Shown in pieces: positions 36,576 through 59,035 of a stretch of 64,000 bases of DNA. Source of the DNA: Flavobacteriales bacterium (GTDB taxonomy: Bacteria; Bacteroidota; Bacteroidia; Flavobacteriales_D; JAUILH01); assembly GCA_964230215.1 (NCBI GenBank), contig CAXRGQ010000006.1:174106-238105 (forward strand). The letters run 5' to 3'. Numbering within the stretch: position 1 is the stretch's first letter; each line of letters starts with the position of its first letter. Both the position numbers and the translations under genes were made by a program. The notes beneath the pieces are model-generated. The model made no database searches, was not told the origin of the DNA, and saw only the letters and a program-made list of their open reading frames with translations.

Positions 36576-36708
36576 TACTAACGGGGCAGGATATAGCGGA
36601 TGCCCCACAGGTTTAGTTTATCTAATATACGGATTATTATTTCGGGTAATTATTGTCTGTTTGGAGACCTAAGGGCACATGCAGTTTAATCATTGCTGCA
36701 TGTTAGTC
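36576..36708 (-). repeat. attC-like site D (133 bp, same family as B and C)
   Basis: TACTAAC-GGGGCAGGATATAGCGGATGCCCC. The central GTTTAGTTTATCTAATATAC...GTTTGGAGAC is shared with B. The site ends ...GGGCACATGCAGTTTAATCATTGCTGCAT-GTTAGTC. The hepT stop codon TAA sits inside the GACTAAC box. Confidence 0.65.
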
Positions 36709-37044
36709 ATCTAGAAACTTCTTTACTTCAGGTAATAACTTAGGCAGGTCTTTGGTTACAATGGCCCAAATTATTGCATCCGAAATTGTGTCATAACCAT
36801 GTATTATTCTATTTCTTGTATCCACAATTTTTCGTGCGTTTTCAATTGGGAAATCACTTTGGAGTTTTAGAATTCGATTTACTGCTTCTCCTATAATTTC
36901 AAGACTTCTCTCAATTGCTCGCTTAGTCTTTAAATCATTCTGGAATTCAAAATAATTCCTTTTTTCTGGCAGGAATGAGTTAATCTCTAGTATGGCGTCA
37001 TGAATATCAATTAACCAAACTTTAATTTCTTTCTCCATACACAA
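36703..37044 (-). CDS. hepT: HepT (DUF86) ribonuclease toxin
   Basis: R-x4-H-x-Y motif (RNRIIHGY). 113 aa. Overlaps mntA. Confidence 0.8.
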   Translation of the reverse strand: MCMEKEIKVWLIDIHDAILEINSFLPEKRNYFEFQNDLKTKRAIERSLEIIGEAVNRILKLQSDFPIENARKIVDTRNRIIHGYDTISDAIIWAIVTKDLPKLLPEVKKFLDD

Positions 37045-37330
37045 GAACTTTTGATTTATCTATTTCAGATTTTAAAAGCTGATTTCTGATAGCTCCATCC
37101 TCTAATAGATCAATCTTTCTATTAAGAAGTTTTTCCAGTTGGAATTTCAGATTAAAGTATTTTTCCGAATAAGAAATGGGATCACTATCCTCAATGGATA
37201 CAATAAGATCAATGTCGCTTTCGTCATTAAATCTATCAGTTGTTACTGAACCAAAAGCGAATAATGTAGACACCCTATTACTAGAGCATAACTCCTTAAT
37301 TTGGGCAATATATTTATCCAAATATGCCAT
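37022..37330 (-). CDS. mntA: MntA nucleotidyltransferase antitoxin
   Basis: GSVTTDRFNDESDIDLIV (GS...DxD). I moved the start to MAYLDKYIAQ. The track's extension to 37447 reads through site E. Confidence 0.75.
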   Translation of the reverse strand: MAYLDKYIAQIKELCSSNRVSTLFAFGSVTTDRFNDESDIDLIVSIEDSDPISYSEKYFNLKFQLEKLLNRKIDLLEDGAIRNQLLKSEIDKSKVLVYGERN

Positions 37331-37388
37331 CCTCATCCAAAGATACGAATAGTAAGGTAAAGTAGTTTCAGTCCTATTGGTTAATGTG

Positions 37389-37455
37389 ATGCAACGGTCC
37401 GTGTATGTTGTCGTAGCATCCCAAAGGGTGCTATGCAATATACACATTGTTGTGT
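37389..37455 (-). repeat. attC-like site E (67-bp short hairpin type)
   Basis: ATGCAAC-GGTCC-GTGTAT-GT-TG-TCG-TAGCA [loop TCCCAAAGGG] TGCTA-TG-CA-AT-ATACAC-ATT-GTTGTGT. It is an imperfect palindrome with bulges and AAC/GTT ends. Confidence 0.6.
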
Positions 37456-37584
37456 TTTCGTGCTTTATTTAATTCTTTTTCAGCGGTGGTAAAGCCATAC
37501 TCTTTTACAATTTTTGGTTATAGCGTTGGCTGGTGCGAATTGCAAATGTGTATGGTTTTAAGCGTTGGGTTGATTTCTGAGTGT

Positions 37585-37610
37585 TACTTATAGTCTTTGA
37601 TTTATAGTCC
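37585..37610 (+). promoter_or_regulatory. tandem C-boxes (controller-protein operator)
   Basis: TACTTATAGTC-TTTGA-TTTATAGTC matches the GACTnnnAGTC x2 architecture of R-M controller operators. It lies ~23 nt upstream of the C-gene start. Confidence 0.6.
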
Positions 37611-37632
37611 ACATTTCCTCAAATTTGCAACT

Positions 37633-37869
37633 GTGGAAATAAAATCAAAAATAGGAGCTCGGATCAAAGAATTGAGGGATGATAAGCAAATGTCTCAAAA
37701 AGATTTAGCTTATGCTTCTGATTTAGACCGCAGTTACATTGCAAGTGTTGAAAATGGTCAAAGAAATATATCAATTGTCAATATTGAAAAAATTGCTGTT
37801 GCACTTGGAGTTACATTAAAAGATTTTTTTAGGAATGACAAATTTGATAACGATACAACAAGCAGTTGA
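37633..37869 (+). CDS. R-M controller (C) protein, XRE-family HTH
   Basis: HTH segment MSQKDLAYASDLDRSYIASVENGQRNIS. I prefer GTG 37633 (78 aa, close to the C-boxes). Overlaps the next gene by 35 nt. Confidence 0.7.
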   Translation: MEIKSKIGARIKELRDDKQMSQKDLAYASDLDRSYIASVENGQRNISIVNIEKIAVALGVTLKDFFRNDKFDNDTTSS

Positions 37870-38644
37870 TGGATTTAAAGAACTTATAGAAACTTCAATT
37901 GTTGAAGGTGGAATTAAAGCAAAAGAAGCAATTATTAGGTCATCACGACCAATTAACTTTATTCACGAGGCTGTCAAAGCCGATTTTATTAGAAAAAGAA
38001 TTTCTCCTGATAGAATCCATCCACCTCTTGGAGAATCAAAACCTGAACTTAAATTAGCTGGTTTTATTAAACAGAAACATCAAGATGTTTGCGTTGCACC
38101 TGAAGGATATGTTCCAGAATCTGAAACAATGACTGAAGGGATTTTAAGAGAAGCAACTGATTATTATGGTAAAGATTATACAGAACGTACAATTTCTGTA
38201 AACATTAGAAGTCAAATGAGTTCTCTTGCTAAAAACTTTGACACACTTTATGAAAGAACTATTGCCGAAGCTCAAAACCTGCACGTTAGATGTCAGAAAA
38301 TGGTGCTTGGAGAAGTTTATATGATTCCTGTAAAAGAATATGATGCGTCTGTAATGGATGAAAAAAGAGTTGAATTTATTGACCGAATAGGCGCAGTTGA
38401 GAAATATATCAAATCATTCCAAGCAATTAACGGAAGACCTAATCATGAACGAGAAGATTACAAGTATGAACGAGTTTGCTTGCTGCTTGTAGACTTTCAA
38501 CAAGCACCTGCAAAGATTTATAGTACAAATCAGGAACTTTATGATGATGGACTTTTAGATGAAGCTTCCGATGCCAGTATCGAAGAGCTTTCTTGGGAAA
38601 CATTTACGGATTCTATTCTAAATTCATATAAGAATAGATTCTAA
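37835..38644 (+). CDS. putative restriction endonuclease subunit 1 (269 aa)
   Basis: Lies between the C gene and the methyltransferase. Paralog of the next ORF. Shared blocks: AGFIK.K.QD, GKDYTE, VN(I/V)RSQMSS, RC.KMVLGE, EDYKYER.CL.L.DF. Confidence 0.55.
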   Translation: MTNLITIQQAVDGFKELIETSIVEGGIKAKEAIIRSSRPINFIHEAVKADFIRKRISPDRIHPPLGESKPELKLAGFIKQKHQDVCVAPEGYVPESETMTEGILREATDYYGKDYTERTISVNIRSQMSSLAKNFDTLYERTIAEAQNLHVRCQKMVLGEVYMIPVKEYDASVMDEKRVEFIDRIGAVEKYIKSFQAINGRPNHEREDYKYERVCLLLVDFQQAPAKIYSTNQELYDDGLLDEASDASIEELSWETFTDSILNSYKNRF

Positions 38645-39597
38645 TGGCTAAAAGCAAAATTTTAAGTAAAAGAAAATCTGCTCAACTCGAGAGAGTTAAG
38701 GCTACCGCCCATCATAATATCGTTAATGCAACACCACAAAATATATTGCAGGTTGCTTGCGATAATTTCAAATTTGTATTTGAACAAGCAGTTAGAATTG
38801 GAGGTGTTAAAGGAAAACAAAGTTTAACGACTTCAAGCAAGCACATTAACTTGTTTCATGAGGTGGTGAAATCAGAATTAATACGTAATGGAGTTAGAGC
38901 AGATTTGGTTTTTCCATCACAATATAATTCTACTGGTGAAATAAATTTTGCAGGATTTATTAAAGCAAAAAAGCAAGATATTTCGGCAGTTCCATCAGCT
39001 TTCATCAATAATGAAACCCCTGAAACCATAACAGTTGGTATGATGACAGGGGAAACAGACCCATTTGGGAAAGATTATACTGAAAATTCTCTTGTTGTAA
39101 ATGTGCGAAGTCAAATGAGTAGTATTGGGAAGAACAACGATACTATTGTGGAAAGAGCTTTTGCTGAAACTCTTAATCTTCATATGAGATGTCCGAAAAT
39201 GGTATTAGGTGAATTTTTTATTCTTCCAATAACTGGTTTTAACATGGATGAAGTGAAAAAACATAACCCAGCTTATGAAAGCATAATTACTACAAAAGTT
39301 AATAGTAGAAGTAAAACAACCGCTGAATCAATTGAGAAAACGATTAATACCTATGCTTCTATAAACAACAGAAACATTAGTAATGGCGAAGATTATAAAT
39401 ACGAGAGATTGTGTTTAATCTTGGCAGATTTTAGTCAAAGCCCAGTAAAAATATATAGAAATGATGCTGATTTAATTTCGGATAACTTGTTACCACCAAA
39501 CACTACAGCAACTTTAAATGGTTTAGGTTATGATAGTTTTATTTCAGATTTACTGGCTATTTATTCGACAAGGTTTGGTACAGGTAAGTTTAGTTGA
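38644..39597 (+). CDS. putative restriction endonuclease subunit 2 (317 aa, paralog)
   Basis: Its ATG overlaps the subunit-1 stop. Roughly 35-40% identity to subunit 1 by eye. Confidence 0.55.
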   Translation: MAKSKILSKRKSAQLERVKATAHHNIVNATPQNILQVACDNFKFVFEQAVRIGGVKGKQSLTTSSKHINLFHEVVKSELIRNGVRADLVFPSQYNSTGEINFAGFIKAKKQDISAVPSAFINNETPETITVGMMTGETDPFGKDYTENSLVVNVRSQMSSIGKNNDTIVERAFAETLNLHMRCPKMVLGEFFILPITGFNMDEVKKHNPAYESIITTKVNSRSKTTAESIEKTINTYASINNRNISNGEDYKYERLCLILADFSQSPVKIYRNDADLISDNLLPPNTTATLNGLGYDSFISDLLAIYSTRFGTGKFS

Positions 39598-41438
39598 TAT
39601 TTTTCAACTAAAAATTCGTCAATCTCTATTTTGTCATTAAGACTTTTTAGTAGCTCAATTTCATTTTGAGTGAAATTTGGAATACTAAACTTTTCAATGA
39701 AGTTCTTTTGATAGCAAGGGAAACCGCCTTGAATAGAAACACTCGTGTTACTTACATAATAGTCCATTACAATAGAGTTCAATATTTTTTGAACAACCAA
39801 AATATTTTCTTCTTTTGACATTGGATGAGTTACATCATCAAATAACATTGCCTTATTTGAATGATCTCTATCAAAATAAATTCCGTAACCGTTTGTATAA
39901 TAAGCATCTTCCTCTTGCACAAATAAAAATCTTGGGTGTTTACTAAATGTTGGATTCAATAATTTTTTACCAAATCTTGTAATTCCTTGTGTTCTTCCCC
40001 AGGCATAAAATGGAGTAAATATTTTTTTTCCTTTTCCTCTTCCTTCTAATTTCTCCTTTTCAGAAAGAAGGTATTCGTAGCATTTCGGATATATTATTTT
40101 GAATTCATCCTCCAAAATTGGAACTGCATTTTTCGAGTCTGTTTGATAAGGAGTAATAATTCTTAAAGTGTTGTTTTCAATATCTTTTTGATTTTTAAAT
40201 TGAGATATTTTGTAAACTGGTTTTGTGATTTCTTTTTCTATTAAAAATGTTCCGTTTTCTGTGCTTTTAGTTAGATAACCATTTTTTTGGTTTGCAGAAT
40301 CTATAAAAAAGACTTCATCTTTTAAGGTTGCAATTCCAACAGCAATATTGAATAATTGTTTTATTGGAGTTCCAATATTTTCAATGATTTTGATATTTTC
40401 TTGTTCTTGGGTTTTAAGTAAACGCCATTTATTTACATTGAGGTTTTCTAGATAGTTTGGCGAACCATTTGCAGATATTAAAAAGTTTGCACAAGTCTGT
40501 TCATCTTTGATTTTATCGAATAGAATAGAATCGTTTTTCTTCTTGTCCAAGAATGTAATTGCGGTATAAGTTTGAGCGTCAAAAACCTTTTTATGCCTAA
40601 AATCTACAATTCGTGTAACGCATTTATTTTGCAGAAAATATTGACGAAGCGATAAACCTGCCAGTGATGTAAAGTAATTGTTTGGCGTTATATAGCCTAG
40701 CTTTCCTTCTTTTTCTAAAAGTTTATGCCCCAATTCAAAAAAAGCAAAATATAAATTGAAAGTTCCGTTTTCAATACTTTTCCAATTGTTTATTAAATAA
40801 TGCCTGTTTTCATCACTTAAATCTTGAAACTTGACATATGGTGGATTCCCAACAATAATTTCAAATTTAGTTGACCAATCAGCTTTTAAGCTATCTTGAT
40901 TGAAGATATTAAAGTCAGATTCTTCTATTATCTCATTTTTTAGAAGTCCATAGAGTGATAAAATTATTTTTGAGCGTTTTACATTGTAGTCCAATATATC
41001 AGATCCATAAATATTTTCTCGGATAGTTGCCTTGATACTTTTATTAAAAGTCTTTTGGTAATATTCAGCCAAGCCAATTAAAAATGCCCCACAACCACAG
41101 CTTGGGTCTAAGCATTTGTCATTTTCTTTTGGTGATACTTCATTGATAATAAAATCAACAACGTATGTTGGTGTAAAAAATGCTCCATTAACTTTTCTGT
41201 CGTTTTTAGGAATTAAAAGTTCAAGATAATTCTCTAATAGTTTTAAATCCTTAATCTCAAGAGTTGAAACAAGTAAGTAGATTTCAGACTCTGGTTTAAA
41301 GTCCATTAATATTTCCGAAATTATTGGACTTTTTGTTGAAGCTAAATCATTGTTTTGAAGAAAAGAATAAATGAGATGTTTCTCAACAAGGTTAATCTCG
41401 TGAGAGTTAAGTAATTCATTTATTACACTTTTTTTCAT
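39561..41438 (-). CDS. N6-adenine DNA methyltransferase (Eco57I/TaqI-like gamma class), 625 aa
   Basis: Motif I LDPSCGCGAFL, motif IV VGNPPYV, and a long C-terminal target-recognition region. Convergent with the nuclease genes. Confidence 0.8.
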   Translation of the reverse strand: MKKSVINELLNSHEINLVEKHLIYSFLQNNDLASTKSPIISEILMDFKPESEIYLLVSTLEIKDLKLLENYLELLIPKNDRKVNGAFFTPTYVVDFIINEVSPKENDKCLDPSCGCGAFLIGLAEYYQKTFNKSIKATIRENIYGSDILDYNVKRSKIILSLYGLLKNEIIEESDFNIFNQDSLKADWSTKFEIIVGNPPYVKFQDLSDENRHYLINNWKSIENGTFNLYFAFFELGHKLLEKEGKLGYITPNNYFTSLAGLSLRQYFLQNKCVTRIVDFRHKKVFDAQTYTAITFLDKKKNDSILFDKIKDEQTCANFLISANGSPNYLENLNVNKWRLLKTQEQENIKIIENIGTPIKQLFNIAVGIATLKDEVFFIDSANQKNGYLTKSTENGTFLIEKEITKPVYKISQFKNQKDIENNTLRIITPYQTDSKNAVPILEDEFKIIYPKCYEYLLSEKEKLEGRGKGKKIFTPFYAWGRTQGITRFGKKLLNPTFSKHPRFLFVQEEDAYYTNGYGIYFDRDHSNKAMLFDDVTHPMSKEENILVVQKILNSIVMDYYVSNTSVSIQGGFPCYQKNFIEKFSIPNFTQNEIELLKSLNDKIEIDEFLVEKYQLNLPVPNLVE

Positions 41439-41601
41439 TCTTCTTTCTGTTGACTATAAGTAACAAAATTATGGTTTTTATCCGAGCTATCCAAATTGTA
41501 GAGTTGGGAAAATTTTAGCTCTTTTGGTTTTTTCAGCATTGGGAAAGATCGTGGGCAAAAACCAAATGTGCTAAATGTGCGGCTGGATTTTTTTGCATGA
41601 A

Positions 41602-58079: not shown

Positions 58080-59035
58080 TGAAGATTCTAGCAAATGACG
58101 GAATTGCACCAGCTGGTGTAGAATTATTAGAAAAAAACGGCTTCACAGTCGTAACAGAAAAAGTTGAACAAGACGATTTAATTGAGGCCATCAATAATGA
58201 AAATTATGTTGGTTTATTGGTGAGAAGTGCCACCAAAGTTAGACAGAACATCATTGATGCTTGCCCTGGTCTTAAGCTTATAGGTAGAGGCGGTGTAGGT
58301 ATGGACAATATTGACGTTGACTACGCACGATCAAAAGGATTGCATGTGATTAACACCCCAGCTGCTAGCTCACAATCAGTAGCAGAGTTAGTCATGGGAC
58401 AACTTTTCTCGATTTCTCGTGGATTGTATGATGCGTCTTTACACATGCCAAGCAAAGGCGCCAGCGATTTCAAAGTATTGAAGAAGAAGTACGCTAAAGG
58501 TGTTGAATTGAGAGGCAAAACCATTGCTATTGTAGGTTTCGGCCGAATTGGACAGTCGTTAGCTTCATACGCCTTGGGGTGTGGAATGAATGTTATTGCT
58601 GTTGACAGTAATTCGTATACCACGAGTATACCTGTTACGGTAAATGGTCAAACTATTAATGTTGATATTCAAACTACAAGCTCTTTAGATGAGGTGCTTC
58701 CTAAAGCTGACTACATTTCGCTACATGTCCCAAAACAATCAAATGGTGGGGCTGTAATCGGAGCATCTGAACTAAACAAAATGAAAGATGGTGTCAGAAT
58801 CGTAAATGCGGCGCGTGGTGGAGTTATTGATGAAGACGCCATTCTTGCAGCTGTACATTCGGGCAAAGTTGCTGCAGCAGCGTTGGATGTATTCGAAAAT
58901 GAACCGACACCAAGAGAAGACTTATTAAAAGCCAACAACATAGCGACTACTCCACATATTGGAGCAGCAACAGTTGAAGCTCAAGATCGAATTGGAGAAG
59001 AGCTGGCTAATCAAATCATAGAATTACTTAAATAG
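58079..59035 (+). CDS. serA: D-3-phosphoglycerate dehydrogenase (short 2-hydroxyacid dehydrogenase type)
   Basis: NAD fold VGFGRIGQ and catalytic region NAARGG...D...TPHIG. Coupled to serC. Confidence 0.8.
   Translation: MKILANDGIAPAGVELLEKNGFTVVTEKVEQDDLIEAINNENYVGLLVRSATKVRQNIIDACPGLKLIGRGGVGMDNIDVDYARSKGLHVINTPAASSQSVAELVMGQLFSISRGLYDASLHMPSKGASDFKVLKKKYAKGVELRGKTIAIVGFGRIGQSLASYALGCGMNVIAVDSNSYTTSIPVTVNGQTINVDIQTTSSLDEVLPKADYISLHVPKQSNGGAVIGASELNKMKDGVRIVNAARGGVIDEDAILAAVHSGKVAAAALDVFENEPTPREDLLKANNIATTPHIGAATVEAQDRIGEELANQIIELLK

What the first reader, a model, noticed from the sequence alone, without database searches (positions are those of the whole stretch)
37585..39597. C-box-controlled R-M with two paralogous nuclease subunits but a single adenine methyltransferase
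**Control region**
- The tandem boxes TACTTATAGTC / GATTTATAGTC fit the GACTnnnAGTC x2 operator architecture known for controller (C) proteins.
- A 78-aa HTH gene starts ~23 nt downstream, possibly as a leaderless transcript, and overlaps the first nuclease gene.

**Nuclease genes**
- The two following ORFs (269 and 317 aa) are clear paralogs with shared blocks VN(I/V)RSQMSS, RC.KMVLGE and EDYKYER.CL.
- I do not recognise them as any named enzyme family, and no clean PD-(D/E)xK motif is obvious.
- Paralogous subunit pairs are known from heterodimeric Type IIT enzymes (Bpu10I/BbvCI type) that cut asymmetric sites. Those systems carry two methyltransferases, whereas here there is one 625-aa gamma-class N6A enzyme.
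- I infer a heterodimeric nuclease with an atypical methylation solution, or one catalytic and one regulatory paralog.
Basis: partly seen in the sequence, partly recalled or inferred. Interest (0 to 1): 0.55.

Follow-up and report, generated by a model that had tools for sequence, protein, structure and literature searches.

The report
Restriction system with two interchangeable nucleases
This is a controller-regulated restriction-modification cassette with two diverged copies of its DNA-cutting enzyme; relatives elsewhere carry either copy alone beside the same protective methylase, so the copies look like stackable, swappable alternatives rather than two halves of one enzyme.

Summary
A C-box pair, a 78-aa controller gene, two paralogous nuclease genes (40% identity, E 2e-74) and one convergent 625-aa gamma-class N6-adenine methyltransferase form a 4.1-kb mobile cassette (window ~37477-41590).

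The heterodimer/asymmetric-site interpretation is not supported. Across 120 complete related loci the core system is C + one nuclease + M.
- Near-identical cassettes carry R1 alone (Lutibacter sp. B1: R 88%, M 91%).
- Others carry R2 alone (TARA contigs: R2 86%, M 87%).
- In each case the other nuclease gene is precisely absent.
- In two cassettes about 95% identical in C, R1 and M, the second-slot nuclease belongs to unrelated-looking lineages.

Both window nucleases keep about 30 family-invariant polar residues and are under purifying selection (dN/dS 0.05-0.08). Both hit one PADLOC Type II REase profile (E 1e-83 and 6e-61). Both models fold as remote PD-(D/E)XK restriction enzymes.

I conclude they are two autonomous nucleases, probably of the same specificity, stacked under one methylase. 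Regulation is Esp1396I-like. The modular nuclease slot appears to be undescribed, a new variant of a known kind. The recognition site remains unknown.

The parts
37477..41590 (.). Whole mobile R-M cassette (C-box, C, R1, R2, M, M operator).
   Evidence: blastn homology to L008, L010, L088, L141 and L165 starts at about 37477 and ends at about 41590, while their flanks differ.
37585..37595 (+). Distal C-box O_L, TACTTATAGTC. Centred near -42 of the predicted C/R promoter; predicted activating site.
   Evidence: Nearly invariant in about 70 loci. Fits the C-box consensus GACT(N3)AGTC(N4)GACT(N3)AGTC (PMC3488213).
37596..37599 (+). TTTG, predicted -33 element of the C/R promoter. It lies between the two boxes.
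   Evidence: Conserved and lies 20 nt upstream of the -7-like box. The TTTG-N19-21-TAnnTTTG promoter layout is from my own knowledge of Bacteroidota promoters.
37599..37609 (+). Proximal C-box O_R, GATTTATAGTC. Centred near -28; predicted repressing site.
   Evidence: Conserved. A GAC-to-GAT change in the weak O_R is also described for Esp1396I (PMC3488213).
37620..37627 (+). CAAATTTG, a weak -7-like box (consensus TAnnTTTG). It predicts a transcription start at 37632/37633, i.e. a leaderless C mRNA.
   Evidence: An nAnnTTTG box sits 5 nt before the start codon in most loci. The sigma-A box spans -12 to -5 (PMC9723704).
37633..37869 (+). Controller (C) protein gene, 78 aa, GTG start.
   Evidence: Pfam HTH_3 3.2e-14. 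PDB hits C.AhdI 3.4e-15, C.BclI 6.9e-15, C.Esp1396I 8e-11. PADLOC Control_protein 3.3e-24.
37835..38644 (+). Nuclease R1 (lineage T1), 269 aa. This is the common, usually sole nuclease of the family.
   Evidence: PADLOC REase_II PDLC03558 1.3e-83. AF2 pLDDT 91.8. Best Foldseek hit PspGI. 88-90% identical to the sole nucleases of L010-L012.
38644..39597 (+). Nuclease R2 (lineage T2), 317 aa, with an extra N-terminal helix. Its start overlaps the R1 stop (TAATG). Its last 37 nt overlap the 3' end of M.
   Evidence: PADLOC PDLC03558 5.6e-61. AF2 pLDDT 94.1. Best Foldseek hit the BbvCI B subunit. It is the sole nuclease in L088/L089 (86% identical) and in L090-L098.
39561..41438 (-). Gamma-class N6-adenine DNA methyltransferase, 625 aa.
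   Evidence: Pfam Eco57I and N6_Mtase. PADLOC MTase_II PDLC03335 4.8e-135. 60-63% identical over its full length to the M of single-nuclease systems.
41449..41465 (-). Single C-box O_M, TGTTACTTATAGTCAAC, on the M promoter. It covers the predicted M transcription start (about 41459); predicted site of M repression by C.
   Evidence: Exact ACTTATAGTC at 41452-41461 on the minus strand. Conserved in 86 of 110 loci. Esp1396I precedent (PMC2691842).
41464..41471 (-). TAATTTTG, a consensus -7 box of the M promoter. The matching -33 TTTG is at 41492-41495 (minus strand), 20 nt upstream.
   Evidence: Sequence. TAnnTTTG is conserved at this place across loci. Consensus from PMC9723704.

Best explanation
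This is a horizontally mobile, controller-regulated Type II restriction-modification cassette in which two autonomous paralogous nucleases, most likely of the same specificity, share one N6-adenine methyltransferase.

**Regulation (inferred by analogy with Esp1396I)**
- After entry into a new cell, M is made first from a consensus promoter.
- C accumulates from a weak, probably leaderless promoter.
- C binds O_L and activates the C-R1-R2 operon.
- C binds O_M and shuts down M, then binds O_R and limits its own operon.

**Nucleases**
- R1 and R2 are translationally coupled. Each is a complete PD-(D/E)XK-like restriction enzyme, presumably a homodimer, that cuts the unmethylated form of the site M protects.
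- They are not obligate partners.
- The nuclease position behaves as a modular slot. At least four deep nuclease lineages (41-46% identical to one another) are swapped or stacked by recombination between the conserved C and M genes.
- Stacking plausibly gives redundancy against nuclease-specific counter-defence. This last step is speculation.
For: **Each nuclease occurs alone with the same M**
- R1 only: L010 (R 88%, M 91%), L011, L012, L141, L154, L165. Nucleotide homology covers 37477-38620 and 39568-41590, so R2 is precisely absent.
- R2 only: L088/L089 (R2 86%, M 87%, C 88%). Homology covers 37477-37850 and 38642-41590, so R1 is precisely absent. L090-L098 are also R2-only.

**Census of 120 complete loci**
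- Single nuclease: T1 87, T2 8, T3 9.
- Tandem: T1+T2 8, T1+T4 7, T1+T1 1.

**Slot swapping**
- L097 and L013 are 94.7% (C+R1) and 95.6% (M) identical in DNA, but their second nuclease is T2 in one and T4 in the other, with no nucleotide similarity.
- First-slot nucleases of tandem loci sit among single-locus nucleases at the tips of the tree.

**Both copies look functional**
- About 30 polar residues are invariant in all four lineages.
- dN/dS between tandem loci is 0.05 for R1, 0.08 for R2 and 0.09 for M.
- Both hit one Type II REase profile.
- Both models are confident, and their top Foldseek hits are PspGI, BbvCI and SgrAI.

**Regulation**
- C resembles C.AhdI, C.BclI and C.Esp1396I.
- O_L/O_R and O_M are conserved.
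- The Esp1396I mechanism is documented in PMC2691842 and PMC3488213.
Against: - Nothing here shows enzyme activity, oligomeric state or the recognition sequence.
- That single-nuclease relatives are functional is inferred only from intact genes and purifying selection.
- The advantage of carrying two nucleases of the same specificity is unexplained.
- Tandems always pair a T1 nucleases in slot 1 with a different lineage in slot 2. T4 was seen only in slot 2 (7 of 7). Both facts could hint at cooperation rather than pure redundancy.
- Fold matches are weak (E about 6e-3, TM 0.31-0.38).
- The canonical (D/E)xK lysine is not evident. The candidate active site is D84, N123-x-R125, E140.
Confidence: 0.58

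Rival explanations
1. Facultative or functional heterodimer. When co-expressed, R1 and R2 assemble into a heterodimer, alongside or instead of homodimers. The heterodimer has distinct properties, such as staggered or sequential strand cleavage or altered fidelity, but acts on the same M-protected site. This would be an early stage on the path from a Bsu36I-like homodimer to a BbvCI/Bpu10I-like Type IIT enzyme.
For: - The genes are translationally coupled in tandem (TAATG overlap), and intergenic distances are 0-20 nt in all 16 tandem loci.
- Tandems always combine two different lineages in a fixed order.
- The best Foldseek hit of R2 is a BbvCI subunit.
- Divergent evolution of homodimeric and heterodimeric relatives (Bsu36I, Bpu10I, BbvCI) is documented (PMC4081073).
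Against: - Each nuclease occurs alone with an 87-91% identical M.
- One R1 backbone (95% identical DNA) pairs with second-slot nucleases that are only about 36-41% identical to each other. That is hard to reconcile with a co-adapted interface.
- R1 in tandem loci shows no specialised subclade.
- The single M is orthologous to that of single-nuclease systems.
Confidence: 0.2
2. Nested specificities. M methylates a short or degenerate site, and each nuclease lineage cuts a different subset of it. Stacking two lineages would then widen the range of foreign DNA that is cut.
For: - It would give a clear selective advantage to stacking and swapping.
- Nuclease lineages are only 41-46% identical while M stays at 60% or more across the whole family.
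- Any nuclease narrower than M is viable.
Against: - About 30 polar or charged residues, including RSQxSS, KNxDT..ER, NLHxR and KYER, are invariant in all lineages. This suggests one shared DNA-recognition apparatus.
- 40% identity is typical of isoschizomers (my own knowledge).
- The recognition site could not be derived. The palindrome-avoidance test gave no specific signal.
Confidence: 0.12
3. A neutral by-product of recombination between two allelic cassettes (C-R1-M and C-R2-M). One nuclease is redundant and on its way to being lost.
For: - Precise presence/absence polymorphism of either gene occurs in otherwise 82-89% identical cassettes.
- The junction lies in the conserved RF(G) codons and in the overlap with the M tail.
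- The same R-M junction has accepted unrelated inserts in L041, L042 and L055.
Against: - All 16 tandem loci have both genes intact.
- Tandem cassettes that have diverged to 68-76% nucleotide identity (window vs L006 and L097) still keep both genes, with dN/dS of 0.04-0.16.
Confidence: 0.08

Closest known systems
Esp1396I R-M system (C.Esp1396I regulation)
   Same: - The C-R operon and the M gene are convergent, and the C gene overlaps R.
- There is a two-site C-box (O_L plus a weaker O_R carrying GAT) upstream of C.
- A single C site on the M promoter represses M (PMC2691842, PMC3488213).
- C is homologous to C.Esp1396I (E 8e-11).
   Different: - This cassette has two nuclease genes.
- The C mRNA is predicted to be leaderless, whereas the Esp1396I transcript has a 27-nt leader.
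- The promoters are of the Bacteroidota TTTG/TAnnTTTG type.
- The box spacing is 1 bp shorter.
- The 3' ends of R and M overlap by 37 nt, instead of being separated by a terminator.
- I could not test whether the R and M enzymes themselves are related to those of Esp1396I.
BbvCI / Bpu10I (Type IIT heterodimeric restriction enzymes)
   Same: - Two similar-sized paralogous PD-(D/E)XK subunit genes lie in tandem.
- BbvCI subunit B is the top Foldseek hit of R2 (E 6e-3, probability 0.97, TM 0.31-0.36).
   Different: - Those enzymes need both subunits, cut asymmetric sites and come with two methyltransferases (PMC4081073).
- Here each nuclease occurs alone with the same single N6A methyltransferase.
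PspGI / SgrAI group of PD-(D/E)XK Type IIP/IIF restriction enzymes
   Same: - PspGI is the best structural match of R1 and the fifth of R2; SgrAI also appears.
- The order of conserved residues (helix E45, strand D84, strand N123-x-R125, following helix E140) resembles, from my memory of that group, an active site whose second acidic residue sits on the helix after the third strand.
   Different: - There is no sequence similarity and TM is only 0.35-0.41.
- An arginine sits where the catalytic lysine is expected.
PADLOC profile PDLC03558 (REase_II) with PDLC03335 (MTase_II)
   Same: - Both nucleases match the profile over its full length (1.3e-83 and 5.6e-61).
- M matches its profile at 4.8e-135.
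- The enzyme families themselves are therefore already catalogued as Type II R-M components.
   Different: - The profile carries no enzyme name or recognition site.
- Pfam, NCBIfam and the PDB have nothing for the nuclease.
BslI (two different nuclease subunits, one methyltransferase, palindromic site)
   Same: Two nuclease genes serve a symmetric-site system (PMC4081073, describes BslI as an alpha2-beta2 enzyme and an unusual Type IIP). That it has a single methyltransferase is from my own memory.
   Different: - The BslI subunits are both required and, as far as I know, are not paralogs.
- Here the subunits are paralogs and each is sufficient in relatives.

Membership tests
R-M controller (C) proteins | Small Xre-type HTH protein homologous to characterised C proteins. 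| tested here: met
   HTH_3 3.2e-14. C.AhdI 3.4e-15, C.BclI 6.9e-15, C.Esp1396I 8e-11. PADLOC Control_protein 3.3e-24.
R-M controller (C) proteins | [quoted passage not shown] | tested here: met
   The window has TACTTATAGTC-TTT-GATTTATAGTC at 37585-37609. It is nearly invariant across about 70 loci. Divergent loci (L037, L072, L080) carry the canonical GACTTATAGTCCGTTGACTTAAAGTC form. The spacer is 1 bp shorter than the consensus.
R-M controller (C) proteins | Co-transcribed with, and upstream of, the nuclease gene. | tested here: met
   C overlaps R1 by 35 nt on the same strand. The same layout occurs in 120 loci. Co-transcription itself is inferred.
R-M controller (C) proteins | Concentration-dependent activation and repression of the C/R promoter, and of the M promoter in the Esp1396I type. 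| not testable with these tools
   Only the positions of the operators relative to predicted promoter elements are available.
Type IIT heterodimeric restriction enzymes (BbvCI/Bpu10I type) | Two different subunits that are both required for double-strand cleavage. | tested here: not met
   Tested by comparative genomics only. R1-only and R2-only cassettes have 85-91% identical M, and second-slot lineages are swapped on one backbone. No biochemical test was possible.
Type IIT heterodimeric restriction enzymes (BbvCI/Bpu10I type) | Asymmetric recognition sequence. | not testable with these tools
   The recognition site is unknown. The avoidance analysis was uninformative.
Type IIT heterodimeric restriction enzymes (BbvCI/Bpu10I type) | Two methyltransferases, or a fused pair, one for each strand. 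| tested here: not met
   There is one 625-aa M with a single catalytic NPPY region. No second M lies in the cassette.
PD-(D/E)XK restriction endonuclease fold | An alpha-beta-beta-beta-alpha-beta core that resembles solved restriction enzymes. | tested here: inconclusive
   The models are confident (pLDDT 91.8 and 94.1) and have the right order of elements. The top Foldseek hits are all restriction enzymes, but at E about 6e-3 and TM 0.31-0.41.
PD-(D/E)XK restriction endonuclease fold | A catalytic D ... (D/E)xK motif. | tested here: inconclusive
   The invariant residues are D84, N123-x-R125, E140/E145 and E160. There is no canonical lysine at that place. The assignment of these residues to the active site is my inference.
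Orthodox Type II R-M (separate REase and MTase) | The nuclease matches a catalogued Type II REase profile and lies adjacent to a matching Type II MTase. | tested here: met
   PDLC03558 at 1.3e-83 and 5.6e-61; PDLC03335 at 4.8e-135. The genes are convergent and adjacent.
Gamma-class N6-adenine DNA methyltransferases | The AdoMet motif (FxGxG-like) precedes NPPY, and the target-recognition domain is C-terminal. | tested here: met
   DPSCGCGAFL lies at about residues 111-120 and NPPY at 198-201. Pfam Eco57I and N6_Mtase. The nearest solved relatives are CamA (4e-20) and M.BseCI (1e-16).

The most novel reading that the evidence does not exclude
The nuclease position of this cassette is a diversity slot. 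Several anciently diverged nucleases of the same specificity are exchanged and stacked between a conserved controller gene and a conserved methyltransferase gene. The driving force would be phage or plasmid inhibitors that target the nuclease protein itself. Alternatively, the tandem is a natural snapshot of the step by which a homodimeric Type IIP enzyme starts to become a two-subunit Type IIT enzyme. Either reading would make nuclease stacking within one R-M system a new defence strategy.
Probability: 0.25. Interest if true: 0.75.

Novelty: new variant of a known kind. Interest (0 to 1): 0.5.

Why it matters
R-M systems are normally thought of as one nuclease matched to one methyltransferase. 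Here one methyltransferase and one controller serve a set of four or more deeply diverged nuclease lineages, which are swapped or stacked in otherwise near-identical cassettes.

If the nucleases share a specificity, the nuclease protein, not the recognition site, is what is being diversified. The most obvious cause would be protein-targeted anti-restriction.

If they heterodimerise, the locus is a natural intermediate in the evolution of asymmetric Type IIT enzymes and of nicking enzymes.

The family also offers:
- an uncharacterised restriction-enzyme fold variant, with a possible N-x-R in place of (D/E)xK;
- a very clean Esp1396I-type three-operator switch adapted to Bacteroidota promoters.

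The practical risk is that this turns out to be simple redundancy of little consequence.

Tried and rejected
- **Naming the nuclease family.** Pfam, NCBIfam and PHROGs gave nothing for R1 or R2. PDB sequence searches with single sequences and with a 67-sequence profile also gave nothing.
- **Annotated relatives.** A phage search found none. Plasmids gave three Firmicutes hits at about 38% identity, all annotated as hypothetical.
- **Recognition site from palindrome avoidance.** I used 707 kb of host flanks around 95 or so loci plus the window. All palindromes are mildly avoided. CTCGAG, CCGCGG, GTCGAC, GATATC and CTGCAG are the lowest. There is no control set and no single outlier, so the test is inconclusive.
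- **Is this the BclI system?** C.BclI is the second-best match to the C protein. I rejected the idea because the BclI system is described as having several methyltransferases (PMC2094064).
- **Sigma-70 promoter and terminator scan.** No excess over shuffled sequence, and the model does not suit Bacteroidota.
- **Literature on two nuclease genes in one Type II system.** Searches found only known Type IIT cases and unrelated papers.
- **One paralog catalytically dead.** Rejected, because all invariant residues are kept in both.
- **Heterodimer structure prediction.** Not possible: only single-chain jobs are offered, and both were used.
Full report
**1. What is in the window**

Between about 37477 and 41590 lies a compact cassette. 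It holds:
- two C-boxes, TACTTATAGTC at 37585-37595 and GATTTATAGTC at 37599-37609;
- a 78-aa HTH gene starting at GTG 37633, 23 nt after the second box;
- nuclease gene R1 (37835-38644, 269 aa), which overlaps the C gene by 35 nt;
- nuclease gene R2 (38644-39597, 317 aa), whose ATG overlaps the R1 stop (TAATG);
- a convergent 625-aa methyltransferase gene (39561-41438, minus strand), whose 3' end overlaps R2 by 37 nt.

R1 and R2 are clear paralogs, with 40% identity over 280 residues and E 2e-74. The same gene order is found in independent assemblies of the same or a very close organism: GCA_041252235.1, GCA_964216795.1 and several SRA runs. It is therefore not an assembly artefact.

**2. The parts are what they look like**

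*Controller.* The C protein hits Pfam HTH_3 (3.2e-14). Its best solved relatives are the controller proteins C.AhdI (3.4e-15), C.BclI (6.9e-15) and C.Esp1396I (8e-11). It also hits PADLOC Control_protein at 3.3e-24.

*Methyltransferase.* M hits Pfam Eco57I and N6_Mtase. Motif I precedes NPPY and the recognition domain is C-terminal, which is the gamma-class layout. It hits PADLOC MTase_II PDLC03335 at 4.8e-135. Its nearest solved relatives are CamA and M.BseCI.

*Nucleases.* R1 and R2 have no Pfam, NCBIfam, PHROGs or PDB sequence match. Both match one PADLOC Type II restriction-enzyme profile, PDLC03558, over its full length, at 1.3e-83 and 5.6e-61.

AlphaFold models built on a 67-sequence alignment are confident, with pLDDT 91.8 and 94.1. 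Their best Foldseek matches in the PDB are all restriction enzymes: PspGI, BbvCI subunit B, the BspD6I small subunit and SgrAI. These matches are weak, at E about 6e-3 and TM 0.31-0.41. The fold is therefore a remote PD-(D/E)XK variant.

The invariant residues fall in the expected order: helix H44/E45/K48, strand Q83-D84, strand N123-x-R125-S-Q, and the following helix E140/E145. An arginine sits where the catalytic lysine is expected, so my active-site assignment is only tentative.

**3. Regulation**

The 32-bp region TGTTACTTATAGTCTTTGATTTATAGTCAACA is almost invariant in about 70 related loci and sits at a fixed distance from the C start codon, while the flanks diverge. A few distant loci carry the textbook form GACTTATAGTCCGTTGACTTAAAGTC. 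This matches the published C-box consensus GACT(N3)AGTC(N4)GACT(N3)AGTC (PMC3488213). In the common form the spacer is one base shorter.

A TTTG lies between the boxes. An nAnnTTTG box lies 20 nt further on and ends 5 nt before the start codon. The Bacteroidota sigma-A -7 box TAnnTTTG spans -12 to -5 (PMC9723704). The predicted transcription start therefore falls on the GTG, which makes the mRNA leaderless. O_L is then centred near -42 and O_R near -28. These are the positions expected for activation and repression respectively.

TGTTACTTATAGTCAAC lies on the minus strand at 41449-41465, about 10 nt upstream of the M start. A consensus TAATTTTG -7 box overlaps it, so the box covers the predicted M transcription start. 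A box within three mismatches of this 18-mer is present upstream of M in 86 of 110 loci. It is essentially absent elsewhere in the fetched DNA.

This three-operator, convergent layout is that of Esp1396I. In that system C activates and then represses the C-R operon and represses M from a single high-affinity site (PMC2691842, PMC3488213). The mechanism here is inferred by analogy, not shown.

**4. The key comparative result**

I collected 80 loci from species-representative genomes, 80 from metagenomes and several more by exact protein look-up. Among 120 non-redundant loci with C, a nuclease and M all present, 104 have a single nuclease and 16 have two.

Average-linkage clustering gives four nuclease lineages that are 41-46% identical to one another. 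R1 belongs to T1 and R2 to T2. The arrangements are:

| Arrangement | Loci |
|---|---|
| T1 alone | 87 |
| T3 alone | 9 |
| T2 alone | 8 |
| T1+T2 | 8 |
| T1+T4 | 7 |
| T1+T1 | 1 |

The closest relatives of the window cassette are decisive.
- **R1-only cassettes.** Lutibacter sp. B1 (L010: R 88%, M 91%), Phaeodactylibacter luteus (L011), L012, L141, L154 and L165 have R1 only. Their DNA aligns to window 37477-38620 and 39568-41590, so R2 is cleanly absent.
- **R2-only cassettes.** Two TARA contigs (L088, L089) have C (88%), R2 (86%) and M (87%) but no R1. Their DNA aligns to 37477-37850 and 38642-41590. L090, L091/L092, L094-L096 and L098 are further R2-type-only systems.
- **Other lineages on a similar backbone.** L140 carries a third lineage alone with an 84% identical M. 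L008 carries R1 (90%) plus a different second nuclease, with a 90% identical M.
- **A clean swap.** L097 and L013 are 94.7% identical across C+R1 and 95.6% across M. Their second-slot genes are T2 and T4, with no detectable nucleotide similarity.

In the protein tree, first-slot nucleases of tandem loci sit among single-locus nucleases at the tips. Second-slot nucleases fall into deep separate clades.

**5. Both copies are maintained**

All 16 tandem loci have two intact genes, separated by 0-20 nt or overlapping. In every case the second gene overlaps M, by 37 nt in 15 loci and 34 nt in L047. About 30 polar or charged positions are invariant in all four lineages. Only E45 is lost, and only in T4.

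| Pair compared | R1 dN/dS | R2 dN/dS | M dN/dS |
|---|---|---|---|
| window vs L097 (both tandem) | 0.05 | 0.08 | 0.09 |
| L006 vs L099 (both tandem) | 0.04 | 0.16 | 0.07 |
| window vs L088 (R2-only) | - | 0.07 | 0.07 |

Neither paralog is decaying, and neither looks like a non-catalytic regulator.

**6. Interpretation**

Either nuclease is found as the only nuclease next to an M that is 85-91% identical to the window M. That M is therefore the orthologue of one serving ordinary single-nuclease systems, which are presumably homodimeric. Across the family, M is 60-63% identical over its whole length, including the recognition domain, whether one or two nucleases are present.

This argues against a Bpu10I/BbvCI-type obligate heterodimer on an asymmetric site. 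It also argues against an unusual methylation solution. Type IIT enzymes need both subunits, cut asymmetric sites and generally come with two methyltransferases (PMC4081073). The first and third of these features are not met here. The second could not be tested.

The best-supported reading is two autonomous nucleases stacked under one methyltransferase and one controller. The shared invariant polar residues suggest that they have the same specificity. The nuclease position behaves as a recombination-exchangeable slot.

Three steps of this reading are inference: that the single-nuclease relatives are active, that the enzymes are homodimers, and that they share a specificity. Why stacking is kept is unknown. 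Redundancy against nuclease-targeted anti-restriction is my speculation.

The rivals are:
- facultative heterodimers, favoured by the fixed order and by the always-different lineages;
- nested specificities under a broader M;
- a neutral recombination by-product, disfavoured by long-term retention of both genes.

**7. What could not be resolved**

The recognition sequence is unknown. A palindrome-avoidance analysis on 707 kb of host flanks showed only general palindrome avoidance, with no specific outlier and no control set. The characterised prototype behind the PADLOC profiles could not be identified without REBASE. No heterodimer model could be computed.

**8. Verdict**

The regulatory reading is supported, and extended by the M-promoter operator. 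The heterodimer/asymmetric-site reading is not supported.

The components are known kinds: C protein, gamma-class N6A methyltransferase and a catalogued Type II nuclease family. The swappable and stackable nuclease slot is, as far as my literature searches show, not described. I rate it a new variant of a known kind, of moderate interest.

Noticed in passing
window 37482-37569 (+) and 41500-41542 (+): An 8-mer, AGCGTTGG, and close variants occur three times at about 40-bp spacing just upstream of the C-box (37482, 37522, 37561). Two degenerate copies (41500, 41535) lie upstream of the M promoter, all in the same orientation. The only other exact copy in the 64-kb window is at 58879. A GCG[TA]TGG copy lies within 130 nt upstream of the C-box in 27 of 114 loci. 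It might be a cassette-end or regulatory element; its function is unknown.
   Followed up: partly
window 36703-37447 (-): A HepT-like HEPN ribonuclease gene (113 aa, PF01934, 3.2e-22) overlaps a nucleotidyltransferase gene (141 aa; Polbeta/NTP_transf_2). This is a HepT/MntA-type toxin-antitoxin pair. It lies directly next to the left end of the R-M cassette, so the region looks like a small defence island.
   Followed up: partly
L041 6806-9278 (also L042, L055, L035): In several single-nuclease relatives, about 2.5 kb is inserted exactly between the nuclease and M. The insert carries a D12-class (Dam-like) N6A methyltransferase (301 aa, PF02086, 4.6e-19) and a 521-aa protein with no Pfam match. 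The R/M junction therefore also accepts unrelated cargo.
   Followed up: partly
L016 and L021 (both from CP058707.1, about 14 kb apart): One Bacteroidota MAG chromosome carries two copies of the C + nuclease module close together. Only one of them has an adjacent M.
   Followed up: no
L001 10394-10891, L002 5008-5505: A LAGLIDADG_1 homing-endonuclease-like ORF (165 aa) lies about 1.7 kb beyond the M gene in the Ignavibacteria-type loci.
   Followed up: no
L169 (Pontibacillus sp. ALD_SL1 plasmid NZ_CP062975.1, 158870-159715): A Firmicutes homolog of the nuclease (about 41% identical to R1) has no M homolog within 4 kb and sits next to an ATP-dependent DNA helicase gene. In the Limosilactobacillus oris plasmid NZ_CP125630.1, the nuclease homolog and a 32%-identical M lie divergently across the record origin, and no C gene was detected.
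   Followed up: partly
window 39561-39597: The 3' ends of the convergent R2 and M genes overlap by 37 nt, and there is no intergenic terminator. The overlap is 37 nt in 15 of the 16 tandem loci (34 nt in L047) and in T2-only loci. It is about 25 nt in T1-only loci. Convergent transcription could itself couple R and M expression.
   Followed up: no
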